Assembly: GCA_017938985.1 (NCBI GenBank)
Contig: JAGBAK010000130.1
Location: 9,263-73,262 of the forward strand
Direction: 5' to 3'
DNA: 64,000 nt
Source of the DNA: Clostridia bacterium
GTDB lineage: Bacteria > Bacillota > Clostridia > Oscillospirales > Acutalibacteraceae
Part shown: in pieces, positions 4,422 to 18,888 of the stretch
How the letters are laid out: each line of letters starts with the position of its first letter
Numbering within the stretch: position 1 is the first letter of the stretch
Program-made: the position numbers and the translations under genes
The notes under the pieces: generated by a model
Told to the model about the DNA's origin: nothing
The model's input: the letters and a program-made list of their open reading frames with translations, nothing else
Databases searched by the model: none

Positions 4422-6308
4422 ATGAAAAAAACTCTCAAAAGAGTAATCAGCCTTGTTCTTTGCACAGCTATGATCGTTTCGGTTGTTGCTTTTTCGGGTA
4501 CTGCAGCTGTTCCCGAAGACGTAAACAAGGACGTTATCACAACCTGCAACGGTGAATGCGGCAACTGCCCCGTTATCGTTCTGCCCGGTATCAACCATTC
4601 TCCCACACATCTCTATGATGAAAACGGTGAAATTGCAACCGACAGCAACGGCAGCGAAATCGGCGGCACACTGCTTATTCTCAACCTTGACGGCGTTCTT
4701 AAGCAGCTTCCTAAGGTTGTTCTCAGCCTTTTTGCAACTCTCGCTTTCCAGCGCAATATGATGCTCGATAAGGTGGCTTACGATGTTGCGCAGGCAGCTT
4801 TCTCAATTCAGCGCTGCGACGAAAAGGGCGACCACGTTGAAAACCTTCAGACTCAGAGATGGTATTATCCTCTTTCCAAGATGACAGAGGACGAAGTTGA
4901 CTGGGTTTACAGAATGGTGCCCATGAAGCCCCTTGTTGACGAAATCGGCGCTGACCACACATATTTCTTCACATTCAACCTTGTTGGCGACCCCATGGAT
5001 TCAGCTGACGACCTTGATAAGTATATCGACATCGTTAAGGCACAGACAGGTCACGATAAGGTAAACCTTCTTCCCGTTTCTCTTGGCGGCACAATTCTCA
5101 CCGCTTACCTTGAAAAGTACGGTCACGAAGACGTTAACGCAATCGTTAACGCTGTTGCCTGCCTTGACGGTACAGATCTTCTTGCAGACTTTATGGCAAG
5201 AGAATGGAACCTTTCACCCGAATTCTTCTATCACGAATTCATTGCAAACATTTTTGTTGAATCCAATGACAGAGGCACTATCGGTTATCTTATCAACCTG
5301 CTTCTCCGCATTATCCCCGAATCAGGTATCAACGCTCTTCTTTCGGGCGCAATGAGCGGTATTCTTGATACAATGATGCTCAACTGCCCCCAGTTCTGGG
5401 CAATGCTTCCATCATACAGATATGATGCTCTTGCAGAGAGATATCTCAAGGATAAGCCTGAGCTTAAAGCAAGAACAGACGCTTTCCAGACAGCAAGAGA
5501 AAATCTCAAAGAAAACATTCTTGCCGCTGAAAAAGACGGTGTAAGAGTAAACTTCATTTCGGGTTCAAATCTCAACCTTGGCGAAGAAATGTATACTTTC
5601 TTTGCAGTTGTTGCTTCTTCCGATAAGGTTAACAGCGACGGTATCATCAACCTCAGCTCAACAACACTCGGCGCAACAGGCGCAGCAGGTGATGCAACTC
5701 TCGGCGAAGGCTACAAGCAGAAGAATCCCAGTGAGGAATATCCTGATTATAACTACGTTTCACCCGACAATATGATCGACGTTTCAACGGCAGTTCTTCC
5801 CGACAACACATGGATTTTCCTTGACCAGTATCACGAGGTTGGCGACAATGACGTTGTTCTTAACCTTGCAAAGGCTCTTCTTCTTGAAGAAATTGACGAC
5901 GTTCATTCAGATCCCGAAAAGTATCCTCAGTTCAACTATCAGGTAACAACCAAATATGTTCGTCGCTGGAGACTTGCAGACGCATACGAAGTTGACCGCA
6001 CAACCCTCACCGCAGAGCAGACAGCAAAGCTTGACGCAGCTATTGCAGGCGGCGAAGCAGTTGTTCATGCAACCATAGCTCCCAAGCAGGAGGATGTTGA
6101 AGCTGCTGACAGAGCCCTTATGGAAATTCTTCACGAGGTCGGATATCCCGGATATGAAAACATTGACGAAGAAGAAGAATCCAAGATAAATGATATCCTT
6201 GAAACAGTTCTCGGCACCGTAAGCAAAACGTTTGTTGATATCTTCGGCAGCAAGAGTTACATTGATTTCTTCCTTGATCTTATTGTTGGAGTATTCTCAA
6301 AAATCTGA
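4422..6308 (+). CDS. Secreted alpha/beta-hydrolase, LCAT/PLA-lipase-like, with amphipathic C-terminal tail
   Basis: Signal peptide, Cys cluster CNGECGNCP, oxyanion-type VIVLPGI, nucleophile elbow VNLLPVSLGG, candidate Asp (SDGII) and His (YHE). RBS AAAGGAG. Confidence 0.65.
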   Translation: MKKTLKRVISLVLCTAMIVSVVAFSGTAAVPEDVNKDVITTCNGECGNCPVIVLPGINHSPTHLYDENGEIATDSNGSEIGGTLLILNLDGVLKQLPKVVLSLFATLAFQRNMMLDKVAYDVAQAAFSIQRCDEKGDHVENLQTQRWYYPLSKMTEDEVDWVYRMVPMKPLVDEIGADHTYFFTFNLVGDPMDSADDLDKYIDIVKAQTGHDKVNLLPVSLGGTILTAYLEKYGHEDVNAIVNAVACLDGTDLLADFMAREWNLSPEFFYHEFIANIFVESNDRGTIGYLINLLLRIIPESGINALLSGAMSGILDTMMLNCPQFWAMLPSYRYDALAERYLKDKPELKARTDAFQTARENLKENILAAEKDGVRVNFISGSNLNLGEEMYTFFAVVASSDKVNSDGIINLSSTTLGATGAAGDATLGEGYKQKNPSEEYPDYNYVSPDNMIDVSTAVLPDNTWIFLDQYHEVGDNDVVLNLAKALLLEEIDDVHSDPEKYPQFNYQVTTKYVRRWRLADAYEVDRTTLTAEQTAKLDAAIAGGEAVVHATIAPKQEDVEAADRALMEILHEVGYPGYENIDEEEESKINDILETVLGTVSKTFVDIFGSKSYIDFFLDLIVGVFSKI

Positions 6309-6373
6309 ACATAAAAACACCGCCTGCCGGATTTTTCCCGGCGGGCGGTAAGTTGATTTTTAACGGAGGTTAT

Positions 6374-8227
6374 ATGATGAAAAAGTTTATTTCGATTATT
6401 CTTTCGTTGGCACTTGTTATATCAATAGCCGCTATCGGCGGTGTCAGCGCAACTGAGCCTGTTTCGTCAGAAATTCTTACGGAGTGCGGCGGCAACTGCG
6501 ACGTTTGCCCTGCAATCGTTGTTCCCGGTATCGGTCAGTCAAACGTTTGGCTGCTTGATGATGACGGTGAATACGTGCTTGACGGCGACGGCAACAGAAT
6601 CAATTGCTTCCCCGGCTATTTTGATATCGGCAAAATCGTTTCAAAGGTTCTTCTGCCTGCGATTCTCACGCTGGTAACACAGAAAGATATGGGATTTTCA
6701 AATGCTCTTGCAGAGGCTCTTGCAGGCGCATTCTATATGAACTCATCTGACTTCAACGGCAAGGCTCCCGACTGCGTTGAGGTTGAAAAATATCCTTATT
6801 CCGTTGCGGAATGCAGCGACTATGAAAAGGAACAGATTTACGGCAATATTCCTCTTCAGGATTACGCAAACAGAGTTGGCGAAGACCATCTTTACTATTT
6901 TGCATATAACTCATTCGGCAACAACATTGATATCGTTGACGAGCTTTATGCTTTCATTCAGCAGGTTAAAAAAGAAACCGGTCACGATAAGGTAAACATT
7001 GTTCCCATAAGCATGGGCGGCACGGTTGCAAACGGTCTGCTTGATTATTATCCCGAGGTTGTAAACGACCTCAACAAGGTGGTTTACATTGTTCCCGCTC
7101 TCAACGGTTCAACAATCGTCGGTGACGTTATGACAAAGAACATCACTTTCCTTGATGTTGATTACCTTTATAACGGCTTCCTTGAGGGCCTTATGGACGA
7201 AGAAGACGCAAGAATGATTGAGGTTATTGCAAGAATTCTTCCCGACGAGCTTCTTGTCAAGGCTCTTGATACTGCTGTTGACAAGCTTCTTGCAGACGTT
7301 TTCTCAAAGAACACAAATATGTGGGCACTTCTTCCCAAGGAATATTATGAAGAGGCTTCCGAAGAGCTTCTTTCAGCTCCCGAATATGCAAAAATCAAGG
7401 AGCAGACAGACAGATATCACCTTGCACAGGTAAACTCAAACAAGAATATCCAGAACCTTGTTGATAACGGCGTTCAGGTTTTCAACATTGTTGACTACGA
7501 TTTCCCGCTTTATAACATAGGTGATGCCTGGAACGCAGATAACGCTGACGGCGTAATTCAGCTCAGCTCAACCGCAATGGGCGTTCACTCCGCACTTGTC
7601 GGCGAAACTCTTCCTGCCGACTACGTTCAGCAGAACACCTACTGCGACGACCCCGCACACAACCACATCTCACCCGACAGAGTTGTTGACGCATCAACAG
7701 GCCTTCTGCCTGATACAACCTTCTATTTTGACGGTCAGGCACACGAAAAGACAGCAAGAAACGACGTTATCATCAAGCTTGCAACAGAGCTTCTTGCAAC
7801 CGATAATATCACCGACGTTTATTCAACACCCGATTATCCCCAGTTCAACTATGCGAGAGATGTAAGAGGTCTTAAGAATGACCGTCTGCCCGATGCAAAG
7901 AACGCACTTGCAAACGTTGAAATGAGCGCTGAAGATAAAGCAGAGCTTGAAGCTGCAATTGCTGAAGCTGAAATGGTTCTCAACAGAACCGCAGGCGAAG
8001 AAGGCGATATTGAAGCAAGCGATGCAAGAATCAGAGCAATCCTTGTCAAGATCGGCGTATACGCTCCCGAAGAAGAGGAAAAACCCTCAACCATTTTCAC
8101 AAACATCAGCCTTTTCCTCTATGATAATTTCGGAACAGACGGTTACTCCGAGCTTGCGGCTGCCGCATTCTGCCTTTATCTTGAATTTGTTAAGGAAATC
8201 CTTTCAATCATCGTAAAGGTGCTTTGA
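6374..8227 (+). CDS. Secreted alpha/beta-hydrolase, tandem paralogue of 4422-6308
   Basis: Signal peptide, CGGNCDVCP, IVVPGI, VNIVPISMGG, ADGVI, AHE; shares TGHDKVN, ISPD/VSPD and YPQFNY with its neighbour. RBS GGAGG before the ATG at 6374. Confidence 0.65.
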   Translation: MMKKFISIILSLALVISIAAIGGVSATEPVSSEILTECGGNCDVCPAIVVPGIGQSNVWLLDDDGEYVLDGDGNRINCFPGYFDIGKIVSKVLLPAILTLVTQKDMGFSNALAEALAGAFYMNSSDFNGKAPDCVEVEKYPYSVAECSDYEKEQIYGNIPLQDYANRVGEDHLYYFAYNSFGNNIDIVDELYAFIQQVKKETGHDKVNIVPISMGGTVANGLLDYYPEVVNDLNKVVYIVPALNGSTIVGDVMTKNITFLDVDYLYNGFLEGLMDEEDARMIEVIARILPDELLVKALDTAVDKLLADVFSKNTNMWALLPKEYYEEASEELLSAPEYAKIKEQTDRYHLAQVNSNKNIQNLVDNGVQVFNIVDYDFPLYNIGDAWNADNADGVIQLSSTAMGVHSALVGETLPADYVQQNTYCDDPAHNHISPDRVVDASTGLLPDTTFYFDGQAHEKTARNDVIIKLATELLATDNITDVYSTPDYPQFNYARDVRGLKNDRLPDAKNALANVEMSAEDKAELEAAIAEAEMVLNRTAGEEGDIEASDARIRAILVKIGVYAPEEEEKPSTIFTNISLFLYDNFGTDGYSELAAAAFCLYLEFVKEILSIIVKVL

Positions 8228-13485: not shown

Positions 13486-13530
13486 AAAATCCGCTGATTC
13501 CCGAAAAGGAACCAGCGGTAATTTTTTTAT
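13486..13530. terminator. Bidirectional terminator ending the TRIC gene and the aminotransferase-transketolase operon
   Basis: CCGCTGaTTCC/GGAAcCAGCGG stem flanked by A and T runs. Confidence 0.7.
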
Positions 13531-13536
13531 GTTTTA

Positions 13537-14346
13537 TCAGCCCTGTGCGTAGTCGCCGACCATCATCATATATGCGCCGATCTGTGCGCCGAATTCAGGT
13601 GCGCCGTCCATAATGAGCTGACCGCCCTTTGTGAATTCAAGCATATCTGCAGTACCCATAAGAATACCGAGTGCACTGTCAAGGGAGTCAAAGCGCATTG
13701 TGAAGAAGGGAAGAGCGCGCTTGTAAGTGCCTCTGCCTGCCTTCGATTTGCCTGCCTTGATGCGGATATATGCTGAAATTTCGGGGTAGCCGTTAACTGC
13801 CCATGCATAAACTCTGTCGGGGCTCTTAAGAGTCCAGCCGTGAATTTCTTCGTGACCCTGCTTGTTGAGTGTGCTGATACCGCTTGAAAGCAGATAGAAA
13901 TAGCACTTAACAAGGAGCTTCTTTGTTTCTTCGTCTGCAGGGGGTTCTTTTGCAGTAAGAAGCGATGACATTTTGAGAAGAGTCATCATAAATGCAGCAA
14001 AAACTGCAGGCTTCTTTGCAATACCCTTCATTGCAGGAAGAGTTGCGGGACCGATTTTTCCTTTGAAGAATGCGTTCATTGTTTCAATGCTCTTGAATTC
14101 AAGTTCAATGTGAGCATTTGTTGCAACCTTATCGGTGTGGCAAATCCATTCGCCGCTGTTAACAACAAAATGTGTTGAAAACTTTCCGTTGGGAGCGTCG
14201 GGGTCTTTTGCGCTTACCTGGATAACTGCGTGAGCGTGCTCAAACTTTTTGGCAAGCTTGGGGTCATCCATAGCAATTGTTTTGATAAGGGGAAGAACGG
14301 CACAAAGGAAAATTTTATTGGTTAAAAATTCTTCTCTCGAAGCCAT
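13537..14346 (-). CDS. Hypothetical protein with two predicted SCP2-like (sterol-carrier/lipid-binding) domains
   Basis: Two repeats of a beta-strand-rich unit followed by the pattern (L/M)xFxS-helix-G; the second ends GQLIMDG plus a helix, as in SCP2 folds. RBS GAAAGGA 9 nt before the ATG at 14346. The fold call is by eye. Confidence 0.55.
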   Translation of the reverse strand: MASREEFLTNKIFLCAVLPLIKTIAMDDPKLAKKFEHAHAVIQVSAKDPDAPNGKFSTHFVVNSGEWICHTDKVATNAHIELEFKSIETMNAFFKGKIGPATLPAMKGIAKKPAVFAAFMMTLLKMSSLLTAKEPPADEETKKLLVKCYFYLLSSGISTLNKQGHEEIHGWTLKSPDRVYAWAVNGYPEISAYIRIKAGKSKAGRGTYKRALPFFTMRFDSLDSALGILMGTADMLEFTKGGQLIMDGAPEFGAQIGAYMMMVGDYAQG

Positions 14347-14392
14347 ATAAATCATTCCTTTCGAAAACTAATAATGCGGATTCTGTTATTAA

Positions 14393-14563
14393 TCAGAACG
14401 CTGCAAGGATTTGCTCCAACAAACCTGAAAGTCCTTCAACAGCCTGAGGAATAAGATCCAGATACATTTTTATGAATAGTGAAAGACTTTCAAAATCACC
14501 AATCATAATAAATTCAAATATCTGCAGAATTGTTGCCAAAGTCAGCATCGTTGTAAATCCCAT
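14393..14563 (-). CDS. 56-aa hydrophobic small protein (not in the ORF track)
   Basis: GGAGG RBS then ATG at 14563; MGFTTMLTLATILQIFEFIMIGDFESLSLFIKMYLDLIPQAVEGLSGLLEQILAAF, TGA at 14393-14395. Co-oriented inside the operon. Confidence 0.7.
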   Translation of the reverse strand: MGFTTMLTLATILQIFEFIMIGDFESLSLFIKMYLDLIPQAVEGLSGLLEQILAAF

Positions 14564-14603
14564 AATTTTACCTCCGTTTCAGAAAGAACAAAATCCGATT
14601 TTT

Positions 14604-14690
14604 ATGATTTGAGATTAGTTTCGCTTTCGCAGAGAGGGAAGTGTATTTTTATACACGACCGAACGAGAAAGTAAAAATAGCTCAAATTAT
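14604..14690. repeat. REP-like long hairpin with GAA/GA internal-loop core
   Basis: ATGATTTGAG...CTCAAATTAT outer stem; core GG-GAA-GTGTAT-TTTT-ATACAC-GA-CC. A similar core is at 35306-35338. Confidence 0.5.
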
Positions 14691-15697
14691 GCTTCGTCGT
14701 CCCAGTCGTCGTCAAGCTCGAAGTCCTTACCCATAACCTCGCGAACTGCGTCAATGATGCCGTTCTGGTCAATGCCGAGAGCCGACATAATGTCTTCGTG
14801 CAGACCGATGGGTGCAAACTTGTCGGGGATACCGAGCTGCTTGAATGCGCAGCCCTTACCTGCTTCAACAATAACCTCTGCAACAGCACTGCCGAGACCG
14901 CCGATAACGTTGTGGTCTTCAACCGTGATGATGCGGCGGGTGTCCATAACAGCCTTGATGATGGCTTCCTTGTCGATGGGCTTGATGGTGTGCATATTGA
15001 GAACTCTTACCTTAAGACCGTCGTTTGTTTCAAGGAACTTTGCTGCCTGATATGCCTGGAATACGCAGGAACCGCAAGCGATAACCGTGATGTCGGAACC
15101 TTCATTGATTGTAACAGCCTTACCAACTTCAAAGCCGTAATCGCTGTTCTCATAAAGAACACGGTCAAAGCCTCTGTTGATGCGGATGTAGTAAGGACCG
15201 AAGTTATCATATGCAGCGTGAACTGCGTTGTAAGTTTCAAGACCGTCTGCAGGGCAGATAACTGTCAGGTTGGGGATTGAGCGGCAAACTGCAAGGTCGC
15301 AGATTGCGTGGTGAGTTGAACCTGCCTGACCGAATGACGTACCTGCGTGGGTAGCAATAACCTTTGCATTGATGTTCTGGTAGCAGATGTCTGTATGAAG
15401 CTGGTCAGCACTTCTGAGAGAAGCGAAAACTGAGAAGGTTGAAAGGAAGGGAACAAGGCCTGCCTTTGCCATACCTGCGGCAACGCCGAACATATTCTGT
15501 TCTGCGATACCGACGTTAAAGAATCTGTCGGGGAATTTTTCGCCGAACATACCGATTTTTGTTGATTTACCAAGGTCAGCTGTAAGAGCTACAACCTCGG
15601 GATGCTTTTCGCCGAGCTCGCAGAGAGCCTTACCGTAAATTTCAGCAGTTGAAAAAGCGGTTGATTCTGCAGCTGTGTAGGTTAATCCTCCTGCCAT
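14687..15697 (-). CDS. Split transketolase, C-terminal (pyrimidine-binding) subunit with atypical substrate-site residues
   Basis: TADLGKST, NVGIAEQ, THAG...GQAGSTHH (canonical GEDGPTHQ), YIRINR, TVEDH and GGLGSAVAE. Confidence 0.9.
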   Translation of the reverse strand: MAGGLTYTAAESTAFSTAEIYGKALCELGEKHPEVVALTADLGKSTKIGMFGEKFPDRFFNVGIAEQNMFGVAAGMAKAGLVPFLSTFSVFASLRSADQLHTDICYQNINAKVIATHAGTSFGQAGSTHHAICDLAVCRSIPNLTVICPADGLETYNAVHAAYDNFGPYYIRINRGFDRVLYENSDYGFEVGKAVTINEGSDITVIACGSCVFQAYQAAKFLETNDGLKVRVLNMHTIKPIDKEAIIKAVMDTRRIITVEDHNVIGGLGSAVAEVIVEAGKGCAFKQLGIPDKFAPIGLHEDIMSALGIDQNGIIDAVREVMGKDFELDDDWDDEA

Positions 15698-15699
15698 GA

Positions 15700-16572
15700 T
15701 CAGATGCCCTCCTTTTCTGCGCGAGCTACGCGCTTAGCATAGTGTTTTTCAAGACTTGCTTTTGCAATCTCATATTTTTCTTCGTTGATAGCACCGTAAT
15801 GCCACATGAAGTTGTCTTCCATAAAGTCAACGCCTTCGCCTTTGATGGTGTCAGCGATAATCATAACGGGCTTGCCGCTCTTGTTTTCAAGAGCAAAGTC
15901 AATAGCTTCTGCAAGCTCATTGAAGTTGTGGCCGTTAACAACCTTAACAATGAAGCCGAAAGCTTCCCACTTGTCTGCAAGGGGTTCAAGAGCCATAACG
16001 TCTTCTGTTCTGCCGTCGATCATGCACTTGTTGCGGTCAACGAAAGAGATGAGGTTATCTACCTTGAAGTGAGCGGCTGCCATAGCAGCTTCCCAGTTTG
16101 AACCTTCGTCAAGTTCACCGTCGCCCATGATGCAGAATGTCTTATAATCCTTGCCCAGAACTCTTGCTGCAAGAGCTGTGCCCAGAGCGATGGGAAGTCC
16201 GTGACCGAGCGAACCTGTTGAAGCGTCAACGCCCTTAACCTTGTTGGAGTCAAGGTGGATACCCATTGTTGAGTTGCTCAGGTTGAAGGTCTTGAGCTTT
16301 TCTTTATCGTCAAAACCAACGTGGCAAACAAGGCTTGCAAGAGCAACGCCTGCGTGACCCTTGCTGAGAATGAAGCGGTCTCTGTCTTCCCAGTTGGGGT
16401 CTTCAACCTTGTAGTTCATATACTTGTAGTAGAGAATGGTGAGCATATCCATAACGCTCATGCCGCCGCCGATGTGAGCACTGCCTGCCCAGAACGTGGT
16501 GTCAAGGCAAAGCTTGCGCAGCTCATAAGCCTGTTCTTCAAGAGCTAACCATTCCTGTTTTGTTAATGCCAT
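15700..16572 (-). CDS. Split transketolase, N-terminal (ThDP-binding) subunit
   Basis: SAHIGG, DRFILSKGH, STGSLGHG, GDGELDEG...DRN ThDP motif, TIKG and WH. Confidence 0.92.
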   Translation of the reverse strand: MALTKQEWLALEEQAYELRKLCLDTTFWAGSAHIGGGMSVMDMLTILYYKYMNYKVEDPNWEDRDRFILSKGHAGVALASLVCHVGFDDKEKLKTFNLSNSTMGIHLDSNKVKGVDASTGSLGHGLPIALGTALAARVLGKDYKTFCIMGDGELDEGSNWEAAMAAAHFKVDNLISFVDRNKCMIDGRTEDVMALEPLADKWEAFGFIVKVVNGHNFNELAEAIDFALENKSGKPVMIIADTIKGEGVDFMEDNFMWHYGAINEEKYEIAKASLEKHYAKRVARAEKEGI

Positions 16573-16758: not shown

Positions 16759-18021
16759 TTAACCGAGTTCGGGGTGGTTTTTGCGGACTGCCTTGAAAGC
16801 ATCTTCAGCAACTTCGATTGTGAACTTGATATCCTCGTCGGAAAGTGATGCGTTGATGAAGTGGTTGTGGTGGTTGGTCATATAAACGCCTCTCTTAACA
16901 ACCTCTGCAATCCATTCCTGATGAAGCATAAGCGAGTTATCGTCTTTAAGCATAAGATAGAAGAGTGCGGGTTCGCCCGAAACGCTAAGGTTGAAGCCGT
17001 TGTTTGCGGCAGCAGCCTTAAGGCCCTCTGTGAGCATTGTACCTTTTTCGAGGCAAAGCTTGGGCAGGTCAATTTCTTTCATCTTGTTGATGCAGGCGAT
17101 AGCTGCAGCAAAGGGAACGGCGCTCATCCAATAGCTGCCTGTGTATGAAAGGCCGCTTATTGCGCTCTTGAGCCAATCCTTACCGCAGAGTGCGGAAACG
17201 TTCCAGCCGTTTGCAAGAGCTTTGCAGAAGCAGATGAGGTCAGCTTCAAAGCCGTAGTGATGGTCTGAGCCTGCAAGGTCAAGTCTGAAACCGCAGCGAA
17301 CGTCGTCAACAATAAGAACGATGCCCTTTTCCGTGCAGAGCTTGCGAACCTTCTGCCAATAGCCTTCTGCGGGAAGAATGTTATCAATAAAGTTGCCGTG
17401 CATATAGGGGGTTGAAATGAAAGCTGCAATTTCGCCTTCGTTTTCGGCAACTATTCTTTCAAGGTCTTCAAAGTTGTTCCATTCAACGTAAAGGTTGTTT
17501 GCAACGTCTTCGGGAATAACGCCGGGGTAGTCAACCTTCTGGCACCAGGGAGCAACACCGTGGTAATAACCCTTAACGAAGATAATCTTCTTTTTGTGGG
17601 TTGCGGCTCTTGCTGTCATAATGGCGGCTGTGGTTGTATCGCCGCCGTTCTTTGCAAAGAATGCCCAGTCAGCCGAAGCGACGGTGTCAACCATAAGCTC
17701 TGCAAACTCAATGATTTTTGTTGAAGGAGCTGTAACGCAGTTTTCAATCTTCATCTGCTCCATAACAGCCTTGTCAACGTCGGGGTCGTTATAGCCGAGA
17801 ACGTTGGGGCCGTAAGCACACATATAGTCTATGTATTTGTTGCCGTCAACATCCCAGAAATATGAGCCCTGAGCTTTCTGGCTGAAAAGGGGGAAAGCCG
17901 AAACGGGAATGCAGCAGCCTTCTGCAGGACCCTGATGTCCGTAAAGACCCGAGGGAATTACTTTTGCGGCTCTTTGAAAGAGCTCGGCGCTTTTTGTGTG
18001 TGTATTAATTTTCATACTCAT
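16759..18021 (-). CDS. Class III PLP aminotransferase, FumI (aminopentol aminotransferase)-like
   Basis: IPSGLYGH, YIDYMCAYGPNVLGY, ADWAFFAKNGGD, YHG, VDDVRCGFR, PLP-Lys FCKALANG and TGSYWMSAVP. Lacks the HemL motifs GGVNSPVR and GTLSGNP. Confidence 0.85.
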   Translation of the reverse strand: MSMKINTHTKSAELFQRAAKVIPSGLYGHQGPAEGCCIPVSAFPLFSQKAQGSYFWDVDGNKYIDYMCAYGPNVLGYNDPDVDKAVMEQMKIENCVTAPSTKIIEFAELMVDTVASADWAFFAKNGGDTTTAAIMTARAATHKKKIIFVKGYYHGVAPWCQKVDYPGVIPEDVANNLYVEWNNFEDLERIVAENEGEIAAFISTPYMHGNFIDNILPAEGYWQKVRKLCTEKGIVLIVDDVRCGFRLDLAGSDHHYGFEADLICFCKALANGWNVSALCGKDWLKSAISGLSYTGSYWMSAVPFAAAIACINKMKEIDLPKLCLEKGTMLTEGLKAAAANNGFNLSVSGEPALFYLMLKDDNSLMLHQEWIAEVVKRGVYMTNHHNHFINASLSDEDIKFTIEVAEDAFKAVRKNHPELG

Positions 18022-18036
18022 GTTCTCTTTACCTCC

Positions 18037-18795
18037 TTATGCAAGATACAGAGCAACTCTGTCAAGAATTCTGTTGAGGTTATCGAGCATTGAAATCATG
18101 CCCTTCATAACGATGTCGCCCGAACCTACGCAGGCAATGGCGTTAACGTTGCCGTCAAAGAGGTCTCTTGCAAGTTCAATGGAACTGAATTCCATAATGG
18201 CTCTGGGATTATCGCTTGCCTTTTTGATGCCGAGAAGGCGGTGGTCTTTAACTCTGATTGTTGTTGAAGCGGCGCCCTTGATGCTGAATGAGATTTCGCC
18301 GTCAACCATGTTGCTTGCGGAGAACTTGCCGATTTCGTCGTTATTGCCTATCTGAGCGATGGCAACCGTGATTGTGTTAAGCAGCAGAAGAGTGCTGATT
18401 CTGAAGAAATCGGGGTCCTTGAGGTCTTCGGGGTCGGGTCTCATATATTTTGAGAGCAGGTCGGTCAGCTTTGTGAAGCTGTTAAGAAGAAAACCGATAT
18501 GGTGGAAGCCCTTTGAGGGGATGGGCGTAACGGTTCCGTCAATAAGACCGTTGAATTTTTCGCAGGAGCTGAAGGGGAGCTTAACGTCGCACTTTGTGCA
18601 GCCCTGCTCCATTCTGCATCTGCCGTTTTTGAAAGTGATGGTGGCGCTGGGGCCGCCCTTAACTTCAAAGCCGATGGAGATAGGCTTTTTGTTTGTCAGC
18701 AGACTGCTTGCCTCGGGAGCAAGCTCGCAGAGGTTTTCGAGGGAACCGAGCACTGCGTAAAGGTTGATATACGCAAGGGTTCTTGAATCAGTCAT
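18037..18795 (-). CDS. Hypothetical protein with two predicted SCP2-like domains
   Basis: Internal duplication (IGFEVKGGPSATITFKNG...LPFSS and ISFSIKGAASTTIRVKDH...MEFSS...GDIVMKG). RBS AAGGAGG. The fold call is by eye. Confidence 0.55.
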   Translation of the reverse strand: MTDSRTLAYINLYAVLGSLENLCELAPEASSLLTNKKPISIGFEVKGGPSATITFKNGRCRMEQGCTKCDVKLPFSSCEKFNGLIDGTVTPIPSKGFHHIGFLLNSFTKLTDLLSKYMRPDPEDLKDPDFFRISTLLLLNTITVAIAQIGNNDEIGKFSASNMVDGEISFSIKGAASTTIRVKDHRLLGIKKASDNPRAIMEFSSIELARDLFDGNVNAIACVGSGDIVMKGMISMLDNLNRILDRVALYLA

Positions 18796-18859: not shown

Positions 18860-18888
18860 ATTTTAACAGATATATTGTTCATTGTCAA
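18860..18888 (-). promoter_or_regulatory. Sigma-A promoter of the SCP2-aminotransferase-transketolase operon
   Basis: TTGACA, 17 bp, TAAAAT with an extended TGn -10 on the minus strand. Confidence 0.75.

What the first reader, a model, noticed from the sequence alone, without database searches (positions are those of the whole stretch)
14687..16572. Split transketolase naturally carries the substitutions used to accept aliphatic aldehydes
Seen: TK-C reads THAGTSFGQAGSTHH where E. coli TktA has THDSIGLGEDGPTHQ, so the D469-equivalent is Ala (residue 125, codon 15323-15325). STAEIYGKAL replaces the usual split-TK TREAYGKAL, so the phosphate-binding R358-equivalent is also Ala. TK-N has GIHL for GHP and WHYG, while the ThDP motif and catalytic His residues remain. 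Established: D469 binds the 2-hydroxyl of aldose substrates, and D469 mutants gain activity and change stereoselectivity on non-hydroxylated aliphatic aldehydes. Inference: the natural partner is a non-phosphorylated hydrophobic aldehyde, which also makes this a biocatalysis lead.
Basis: partly seen in the sequence, partly recalled or inferred. Interest (0 to 1): 0.75.

Follow-up and report, generated by a model that had tools for sequence, protein, structure and literature searches.

The report
Lipid-cutting split transketolase, sphingoid-base operon
This two-piece transketolase has lost two residues that grip sugars and sits in a conserved five-gene operon with an amine-removing enzyme and two lipid-carrier-fold proteins, one predicted to dock on it; it likely cuts the head off sphingosine-type lipids to free a long fatty aldehyde, an oxygen-free route that is untested and that my paper searches did not find.

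Summary
Observation confirmed: the D469 and R358 positions are Ala; GIHL and WHYG are real. The inference from these residues alone is weak. Asp is absent in 66 of 150 split-transketolase representatives, three of four phosphate ligands remain, and a natural D469L split enzyme is already published.

The context carries the case. The gene lies in a five-gene operon (SCP2-fold, FumI-like aminotransferase, TK-N, TK-C, SCP2-fold), intact in 71 of 80 loci. TK-C's acidic tail is predicted to dock on the downstream SCP2 protein (0.75 vs 0.00). A second module (aminotransferase, FGGY kinase, FucA-type aldolase) co-occurs in 24 of 25 family and 25 of 30 further genomes and shares an operator. Full ceramidases occurred only in genomes with one of the modules (6 of 66 vs 0 of 381).

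Best reading (0.55): catabolism of sphingoid bases, with the aldehyde as product rather than acceptor. This requires (3R) selectivity, opposite to known wild-type transketolases, which is both the main weakness and the sharpest test. The substrate is untested. This scan noted both modules before on other genomes.

The parts
14687..15697 (-). TK-C, transketolase pyrimidine-binding plus C-terminal subunit (336 aa) with A18 (R358), Q124 (E468), A125 (D469), H130 (Q474); keeps S45, E66, H117, H129, R175
15323..15325 (-). Codon of Ala125, the D469 position
15644..15646 (-). Codon of Ala18, the R358 position
14690..14713 (-). Acidic C-terminal tail of TK-C (residues 329-336, W-D-D-E), predicted docking strand for the downstream SCP2 protein
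   Evidence: interface; tail in 79 of 80 loci, 3 of 150 representatives, absent in the C38 paralogue
15700..16572 (-). TK-N, ThDP-binding subunit (290 aa); keeps H33, H73, H106, H258, GDGE...N181; has L107 (P101), Y259 (G262), N97 (R91)
16759..18021 (-). Class III aminotransferase AT1 (420 aa), best solved relative FumI aminopentol aminotransferase
   Evidence: 6HBS 300 bits vs 156 for the next hit
18037..18795 (-). SCPa, tandem SCP2-fold protein (252 aa), travels with AT1
   Evidence: Pfam SCP2 weak; model pLDDT 93, Foldseek hits are SCP2 domains; gene order
13537..14355 (-). SCPb, tandem SCP2-fold protein (272 aa), paralogue of SCPa, travels with TK and is predicted to bind TK-C
   Evidence: (Z 11, rmsd 3.2, 113 aligned)
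13732..13749 (-). SCPb residues 203-208, basic strand predicted to pair with the TK-C tail
   Evidence: R208 at least 90% conserved and G209 invariant in A2
18860..18888 (-). Sigma-70-like promoter TTGACA-17-TAAAAT with TG, upstream of SCPa
   Evidence: best site (11 of 12); total site count not above shuffles (10 vs 7.3 +/- 3.0)
13491..13518 (-). Terminator-like hairpin after SCPb, closing the five-gene operon
   Evidence: 12-pair stem plus T tail; total count not above shuffles

Best explanation
The split transketolase is likely the carbon-carbon lyase of an oxygen-free pathway that breaks down sphingoid bases, and it is predicted to carry its own SCP2 lipid carrier on its acidic tail. Step 1 (inferred): AT1 with SCPa moves the 2-amino group of sphinganine or sphingosine to a keto acid, giving a long-chain 1,3-dihydroxy-2-ketone. 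Step 2 (inferred): ThDP attacks C2, the C2-C3 bond breaks and a C16 aldehyde leaves into SCPb. Step 3 (inferred): the two-carbon unit goes to a small aldose phosphate, for which S45, H117 and R175 are kept, or is released as glycolaldehyde. Step 4 (inferred): aldehyde or alcohol dehydrogenases, and an ene-reductase for 2-enals, process the aldehyde; in lineages without FabF this would supply acyl or alkyl chains. A co-regulated module elsewhere in the genome (AT2, FGGY kinase, FucA-type aldolase) likely treats phytosphingosine like D-ribulose: deaminate, phosphorylate C1, split to DHAP plus a C15 aldehyde. Shown: gene content, order, residues, co-occurrence, shared operator. Predicted: folds and docking. 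No substrate or reaction is shown.
For: Five-gene order in 71 of 80 loci, the other 9 cut by contig ends. AT1's best solved relative is FumI, which turns a sphinganine-like 2-amino-3-ol into its 2-ketone with pyruvate as acceptor. Both flanking proteins have tandem SCP2 folds. SCPa stays with AT1 and SCPb with TK when the operon is split or shuffled (G020, L147, L165, L167, L208). TK-C plus SCPb score 0.75, best of 3 controls 0.00; the mark was met by 116 of 157 solved and 2 of 215 mismatched pairs; runs agree in at least 54% of contacts; partner pLDDT 90. Class-3/fatty-type ALDH beside the cassette in 4 of 80 metagenome loci (one checked against PDB) and inside an AT2 module. Fe-ADH hits in 8 of 80 loci; ene-reductase in 5 and VOC protein in 9 of 80 GTDB loci. 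AT2 shares 24 of 25 family genomes with SCPb, is in 25 of 30 further cassette genomes across phyla and 3 of 5 SCPb-positive of 300 class genomes. A palindrome learnt on 13 cassette promoters scores 17 or more before the AT2 module in 5 of 22 loci, against 3 such sites in 2.19 Mb of G000. Full-length ceramidases in 6 of 66 module-bearing vs 0 of 381 other genomes. FabF in 0 of 25 cassette vs 42 of 96 other family genomes. No SPT-type enzyme found in 5 of 5 genomes tested. DesAB is a precedent for a split TK that cleaves a lipid ketol.
Against: Natural sphingoid bases give (3R) ketodiols (2S,3R and 2S,3S,4R in PMC2444003; CIP reasoning mine), while wild-type full-length and split TKs give (S) almost always, including the natural D469L enzyme; small residues at D469 kept (S) in E. 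coli. No ceramidase lay next to the TK cassette among 89 neighbours scanned of 142 picked. Most module-bearing genomes (60 of 66), G000 included, have no full ceramidase; G000 has only weak ceramidase-fold hits. The operator was not found in 6 of 6 ceramidase loci, nor at the window's own cassette. FumI-like proteins at 33-41% identity sit in mixed contexts on 7 plasmids viewed, so FumI likeness does not fix the substrate. SCP2 folds bind sterols, acyl chains and quinone precursors alike. G000's one complete ALDH looks like a different type and no fatty ALDH was found (81% complete). FabF is present in 13 of 40 cassette genomes. Kin are not independent in any of these counts.
Confidence: 0.55

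Rival explanations
1. Same architecture and catabolic direction, but the substrate is another lipophilic amine or ketol (for example a steroid, alkaloid or aryl amino-diol), cleaved in the way DesAB cuts cortisol.
For: SCP2 folds are not chain-specific. Loss of D469 is shared with a broad specialised group. DesAB cleaves a steroid ketol. The GH5 beside one AT2 module is closer to sterylglucosidases than to endoglycoceramidases. Avoids the (3R) problem.
Against: FumI, not a steroid enzyme, is AT1's best solved relative. No HSDH or DesD-like transporter in the conserved core. Ceramidase enrichment. The kinase/aldolase module needs a 1,3,4-triol-2-one, which fits phytosphingosine.
Confidence: 0.23
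2. One reading: the enzyme adds a two-carbon unit to a fatty aldehyde (from plasmalogen turnover or from deamination of a primary amine) and AT1 then aminates the ketodiol, building a sphingoid-like base without serine palmitoyltransferase.
For: AniP and AniQ do transketolase-then-transaminase chemistry in anisomycin biosynthesis (PMC11387542). No SPT-type enzyme in 5 genomes. A plasmalogen-synthase-like DUF2229 gene is in G000 and G073 and lies near a module in L075 and L128. TK reactions are reversible.
Against: The co-regulated partners are a kinase, a class II aldolase, ALDH and ADH under a TetR repressor, a catabolic set. Family carriers lack FabF. DUF2229 found in only 2 of 5 tested. No acyltransferase or head-group enzyme in the conserved core.
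Confidence: 0.1
3. The enzyme is a specialised sugar or small amino-polyol transketolase and the SCP2 proteins are scaffolds, not lipid carriers.
For: S385, H461 and R520 equivalents invariant. A related Asp-less TK lies in a sugar ABC/FGGY operon. The partner module is built from sugar-type enzymes.
Against: Each enzyme keeps its own SCP2 partner across phyla. A canonical split TK already exists in the genome. Fatty-type ALDH neighbours. No sugar transporter in the conserved core.
Confidence: 0.12

Closest known systems
Split transketolase of Carboxydothermus hydrogenoformans (PDB 6YAJ/6YAK; PMC7661550)
   Same: Two adjacent genes, best solved hit for both subunits (270 and 228 bits); same ThDP and His residues.
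   Different: 6YAK keeps R358 and D469 and has GHP and WHG; it lacks the acidic tail; no aminotransferase or SCP2 partner is described in the passages read.
DesAB steroid-17,20-desmolase of Clostridium scindens (PMC3735941, PMC12065433)
   Same: An extra split transketolase of a gut anaerobe used to cut a two-carbon ketol off a lipid without oxygen; C2 unit proposed to enter the pentose phosphate pathway.
   Different: Operon is desC/desE HSDH plus desD transporter; product is a 17-ketosteroid; no aminotransferase or SCP2 carriers. Sequence relation not tested.
AniP/AniQ of anisomycin biosynthesis (PMC11387542; PDB 8K03 taken to be siAniP from recall)
   Same: Natural TK-like enzyme with D469 replaced (Trp) and paired with an aminotransferase on a non-phosphorylated hydrophobic substrate.
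   Different: Single chain, biosynthetic, aromatic keto acid donor, lacks the His-rich motif and all four phosphate ligands; only a weak hit here (E 2.8e-4).
FumI aminopentol aminotransferase, Sphingopyxis sp. MTA144 (PDB 6HBS; PMC3136697)
   Same: Closest solved relative of AT1; makes a 2-keto product from a sphinganine analogue with pyruvate.
   Different: Its substrate lacks a C1 hydroxyl; its cluster has FumD esterase and tricarballylate genes; no test on sphinganine appeared in the passages read.
pQR2809 and the ten-enzyme split TK panel (PMC13663882); E. coli D469 mutants (PMC3657141)
   Same: Natural or engineered loss of D469 goes with better use of aliphatic aldehydes.
   Different: Short-chain assays only; pQR2809 remains (S)-selective; physiological substrate not addressed in the parts read.
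FucK/FucA route for L-fuculose and D-ribulose 1-phosphate (stereochemistry recalled)
   Same: The co-regulated module has an FGGY kinase and an aldolase whose best PDB hits are FucA, with the SSE glutamate and His ligands.
   Different: An aminotransferase replaces the isomerase; the aldolase is often a tandem-domain protein.

Membership tests
Split transketolase (ChyTK type) | Adjacent genes for ThDP-binding and pyrimidine/C-terminal subunits | tested here: met
   Pfam PF00456 and PF02779+PF02780, genes 2 bp apart
Split transketolase (ChyTK type) | GDG-x-N motif, catalytic Glu (E411) and H26, H66, H100, H261, H473 | tested here: met
   E411 and H473 in 80 of 80 loci
Split transketolase (ChyTK type) | Ketol-transfer activity as alpha2-beta2 tetramer | not testable with these tools
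   needs protein
Canonical sugar-phosphate transketolase (TktA, ChyTK) | Asp at D469 for the aldose 2-hydroxyl | tested here: not met
   Ala in window and 80 of 80 loci
Canonical sugar-phosphate transketolase (TktA, ChyTK) | Phosphate ligand R358 | tested here: not met
   Ala18; Arg in 1 of 80 loci
Canonical sugar-phosphate transketolase (TktA, ChyTK) | Phosphate ligands S385, H461, R520 | tested here: met
   S45, H117, R175; each 80 of 80
DesAB steroid desmolase | Operon with desC or desE HSDH and desD transporter | tested here: not met
   conserved neighbours are AT1 and two SCP2 proteins
DesAB steroid desmolase | Sequence in the DesA/DesB clade (over 50% identity per PMC12876203) | not tested
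   no DesAB sequence was obtained from a tool; Devendran 2018 not held; SSTDhunter supplements listed, not read
AniP-type ThDP enzyme | Single chain lacking the His-rich motif and phosphate ligands, with AniQ and AniN | tested here: not met
   split, His set and three ligands kept versus PMC11387542 passages
DXP synthase | Phe/Tyr at H100, Arg at H461, Asp427 kept | tested here: not met
   H106, H117, A125; a separate DXS is on C134 (for the H100 rule)
AptAB apulose-4-phosphate and SqwGH sulfo-transketolases (recalled) | Sequence clade membership | not tested
   no named sequence from a tool; paper search gave 0
AptAB apulose-4-phosphate and SqwGH sulfo-transketolases (recalled) | Operon with sugar isomerase, kinase and sugar transporter | tested here: not met
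   none in the five-gene core; the linked kinase lies in a separate module
FumI-like aminotransferase (AT1) | Closer to FumI than to HemL and other class III enzymes | tested here: met
   300 vs 156 bits; below all NCBIfam cut-offs shown
FumI-like aminotransferase (AT1) | Deaminates hydrolysed fumonisin or a sphingoid base | not testable with these tools
   needs assay
SCP2 lipid-carrier fold (SCPa, SCPb) | SCP2 fold | tested here: met
   paralogy hhalign probability 99.3
SCP2 lipid-carrier fold (SCPa, SCPb) | Binds a lipid | not testable with these tools
   a shared fold shows no function

The most novel reading that the evidence does not exclude
Anaerobes across several phyla run a two-branch regulon that treats sphingoid bases as amino-sugars. 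A naturally (3R)-selective transketolase, tethered to a lipid carrier by its tail, cleaves 2-keto-sphinganine and would pass the C2 unit to glyceraldehyde 3-phosphate to give D-ribulose 5-phosphate. A kinase/FucA-type aldolase branch cleaves 2-keto-phytosphingosine. Gut Clostridia that cannot make fatty acids use it to mine host, plant and Bacteroides sphingolipids for their membrane chains.
Probability: 0.3. Interest if true: 0.88.

Novelty: new variant of a known kind. Interest (0 to 1): 0.66.

Why it matters
If true, it names the enzymes for bacterial breakdown of sphingoid bases without oxygen and without sphingosine-1-phosphate lyase (the textbook route, from recall), in a gut family where about one in five sampled genomes carries the cassette (25 of 121). 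That would bear on gut levels of sphingosine and phytosphingosine and on how FabF-lacking Clostridia get lipid chains. It also predicts a wild-type (R)-selective transketolase for long-chain aldehydes with a built-in carrier; the published wild-type panel gave (S) products in almost all cases. Coupled to AT1, such an enzyme would make D-erythro amino-diols in two steps. The bare D469 and R358 substitutions are not surprising.

Tried and rejected
Residue-only argument: rejected, Asp absent in 66 of 150 representatives, counting 1 gap (this set was picked by an Asp-less profile, so it overstates the rate). Shared operator at ceramidase genes (claimed in e1-9862817): not found in 6 of 6 ceramidase loci, each covering 0.3 kb or more upstream. 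Ceramidase next to the TK cassette: none in 89 neighbours scanned. GH5 glucosylceramidase-like gene as a general partner: 0 of 121 family genomes, one case only (G127). FabF loss as obligatory: rejected, 13 of 40 cassette genomes have it; no tree-based correction was run. TetR orthologue in G000: not found (genome 81% complete). G266's SCPb hit is a lone weak gene, not a cassette, but was left among the 66 positives and the 5 of 300. G255 was unscored. The ML tree did not finish; FastTree was used on 170 rows, leaving out TktA, rows under 200 aa and most near-identical loci; no clade test was run. DesAB, AptB and SqwH could not be placed in the tree. What 'fell' in e1-5315955 could not be seen. 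Paper searches for the pathway: 0 papers; 0; 1, unrelated; listings only, none described it. The library lacks most subscription papers and bioRxiv supplements. Expression was not examined. No TK structure was predicted.
Full report
1. Observation. TK-C (14687-15697) and TK-N (15700-16572) are intact ORFs on the minus strand. Ala125 is codon 15323-15325 and Ala18 is codon 15644-15646. Alignment to the solved split TK 6YAJ/6YAK is gapless at these motifs. Alignment with E. coli TktA gives R358A, E468Q, D469A, Q474H, P101L, G262Y and R91N. The ThDP motif, E411 and the five substrate histidines remain. So do S385, H461 and R520, three of the four phosphate ligands listed in PMC11387542. The genome has a second, canonical split TK on C38 and a DXS on C134, so this is an extra enzyme.

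2. How special are the substitutions? They are fixed in the clade: Ala at D469 in 80 of 80 GTDB loci and no Asp in 79 of 79 parsed metagenome loci. R358 is lost in 79 of 80 loci but kept in basal members. Loss of D469 is not rare, though. Of 150 representatives at 50% clustering, 84 keep Asp; the set is biased by my Asp-less profile. In a FastTree tree the clade (21 rows, SH 98) nests in a 67-row group (SH 99) where no scored row has Asp. That group holds a Rhizobium TK with Leu at this site in a sugar ABC/FGGY-kinase operon, and plasmid TKs with Tyr beside aminotransferases or aldehyde dehydrogenases. In print, D469A improves propanal use, D469S and D469T stay (S), D469Y gives (R) (PMC3657141). 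A natural split TK with D469L is already assayed and stays (S) (PMC13663882). The residues show a remodelled pocket; they do not name the substrate.

3. The operon. Upstream lie a class III aminotransferase whose best solved relative is FumI (300 bits vs 156) and SCPa; downstream lies SCPb. A promoter-like and a terminator-like site bracket the five genes (counts not above shuffles). The order SCPa-AT1-TKN-TKC-SCPb holds in 71 of 80 loci from Bacillota, Spirochaetota and Bacteroidota, and the other nine are cut by contig ends. Both unknowns fold as tandem SCP2 domains (pLDDT 93 and 95) and are paralogues. Where the operon is broken or shuffled, SCPa stays with AT1 and SCPb with the TK. A complex prediction of TK-C with SCPb scored 0.75 against 0.00 for the best of three controls; the mark was reached by 116 of 157 solved and 2 of 215 mismatched pairs; runs agree in at least 54% of contacts; partner pLDDT 90. 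The interface is TK-C's acidic tail (W332-D-D-E335) on SCPb strand 203-208. The tail is in 79 of 80 loci, 3 of 150 representatives and not in the C38 paralogue. This supports binding; it does not show it.

4. Accessory genes. Among 80 GTDB loci a TetR occurs in 13, a VOC protein in 9 and a flavin ene-reductase in 5. Among 80 metagenome loci an ALDH occurs in 4 and an Fe-ADH hit in 8, several from close kin. The ALDH checked is class 3/fatty type. In G020 an Fe-ADH follows AT1 directly. Alanine dehydrogenase adjoins in L072, in line with pyruvate as FumI's acceptor.

5. A second module. In G043 the cassette faces an operon of another class III aminotransferase (AT2), a class II aldolase, a TetR and an FGGY kinase. 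G000 has AT2 and the aldolase on C36 and the kinase on C1. In 121 family genomes SCPb (the proxy for the cassette) is in 25 and AT2 in 25, with 24 shared. AT2 is in 25 of 30 further cassette genomes. Class-wide it is in 9 of 300, including 3 of 5 SCPb-positive. The aldolase's best PDB hits are FucA and it keeps the SSE glutamate and His ligands. A palindrome learnt from 13 cassette promoters scores 17 or more before the AT2 module in 5 of 22 loci, and 11-14 in three more, against 3 sites of 17 or more in G000's 2.19 Mb. The window's own lineage has neither the site nor a detectable TetR orthologue. A Novosphingobium plasmid pairs a FumI-like gene itself with a class II aldolase, a kinase and an ALDH.

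6. Lipid links at genome level. Full-length neutral ceramidases were found in 2 family genomes, 3 of 30 further genomes and 1 of 301 class genomes. All six carry the cassette or AT2: 6 of 66 vs 0 of 381. The sets are not random and kin are not independent. In G124 a homologue of the cassette-linked ene-reductase lies two genes from the ceramidase; in G177 the AT2 module includes a class 3 ALDH. FabF was found in 0 of 25 cassette genomes and 42 of 96 others in the family, is missing in two carriers from other families, but is present in 13 of 40 other carriers. Against: no ceramidase beside the TK cassette, no operator at six ceramidase loci, and FumI-like genes in mixed contexts.

7. Mechanism. 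Inferred: AT1 converts a 2-amino-1,3-diol to a 1,3-dihydroxy-2-ketone, exactly a transketolase donor. The TK releases the long-chain aldehyde to SCPb. A ping-pong enzyme uses one channel for both aldehydes, which would explain why D469 and R358 go while S385, H461 and R520 stay for a phosphorylated acceptor. Release of glycolaldehyde is also possible, since TK splits ketodiols that way (PMC5573996). Kinase, aldolase, ALDH and ADH make the direction catabolic. Stereochemistry is the hinge. Sphinganine and sphingosine give (3R) ketodiols, and phytosphingosine gives (3R,4R) (descriptors from PMC2444003; CIP conversion mine). (3R,4R) is the FucA/D-ribulose configuration (recalled), which fits the second module well. 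For the TK it demands the opposite of the usual (S) outcome. The extra changes Q124, H130 and Y259 could do this, but nothing here shows it.

8. Known relatives and novelty. It is a split transketolase by every testable feature, not a canonical sugar-phosphate one, and works most like DesAB (lipid ketol cleavage) with the enzyme pairing of AniP/AniQ. DesAB, AptAB and SqwGH membership by sequence was not tested. Seven paper searches listed no description of either module. Papers seen: PMC13663882 parts 1-2 of 3; passages of PMC11387542, PMC7661550, PMC5573996, PMC3136697, PMC12065433, PMC12876203, PMC7696235, PMC3657141, PMC2444003, PMC3735941; no supplements read. I reached the sphingoid reading before looking at earlier scan notes; those notes report the same cassette and the AT2 module on other genomes, and one is marked as partly fallen for a reason I could not see.

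9. Verdict. Real feature, correct observation, partly right inference. New variant of a known kind; interest 0.66; sphingoid-base catabolism 0.55.

Noticed in passing
G000:C36:71496-74220 and G000:C1:3942-5486 (outside the window); L101:1-5085: Second module: class III aminotransferase AT2, tandem class II aldolase, FGGY kinase and TetR, co-occurring and co-regulated with the cassette.
   Followed up: yes
window 14356-14686: Unusually long 331-bp gap between TK-C and SCPb (about 10-60 bp in most loci), with a 56-aa ORF at 14393-14563 (-); close relatives show gaps of varying length.
   Followed up: no
window 4422-6308 and 6353-8227: Two tandem secreted alpha/beta hydrolases (628 and 624 aa, lipase-like); a similar-looking secreted protein family lies near the cassette in L022, L028 and L061. 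Fits a lipid-scavenging lifestyle.
   Followed up: no
G000 whole genome: No FabF/FabB found (81% complete); 79 of 121 family genomes lack a hit, suggesting widespread fatty-acid auxotrophy in this family.
   Followed up: partly
L102:3155-4621 and 4821-6878 (G000:C69): Secreted ceramidase-fold protein (weak hit) next to an alkyl sulfatase-like lipoprotein; ceramidase-family hits of any strength occur in 13 of 25 cassette vs 3 of 96 other family genomes.
   Followed up: partly
L129:148-6688 (G127): GH5 sterylglucosidase/endoglycoceramidase-like gene, GH2, a transporter-like gene and TetR beside an AT2 module.
   Followed up: partly
L083:6117-13029 (Novosphingobium plasmid NZ_CP140001.1): FumI-like aminotransferase flanked by class II aldolase, carbohydrate kinase, ALDH, P450 and TetR: a possible aerobic parallel.
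   Followed up: no
L104, L105, L106 (plasmids of Mesorhizobium, Agrobacterium, Paraburkholderia): A related split TK clade with Tyr at the D469 position, next to aminotransferases or aldehyde dehydrogenases.
   Followed up: partly
L075:10777-14961; L128:10152-14567: Plasmalogen-synthase-like proteins (tandem activase; DUF2229 shown for L128; family name recalled) next to the cassette or the AT2 module.
   Followed up: no
L124:6297-8333; L228:6534-7844: RuBisCO-like protein and HAD phosphatase follow a divergent AT2 copy in G121; a similar-looking gene follows the second AT2 copy in G177.
   Followed up: no
G000:C132:407: Strongest operator-like palindrome in the own genome (score 22.9); the gene beside it was not examined.
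   Followed up: no
L069:6564-7440: TK-N appears split into two ORFs (frameshift or assembly error) in this one locus.
   Followed up: no
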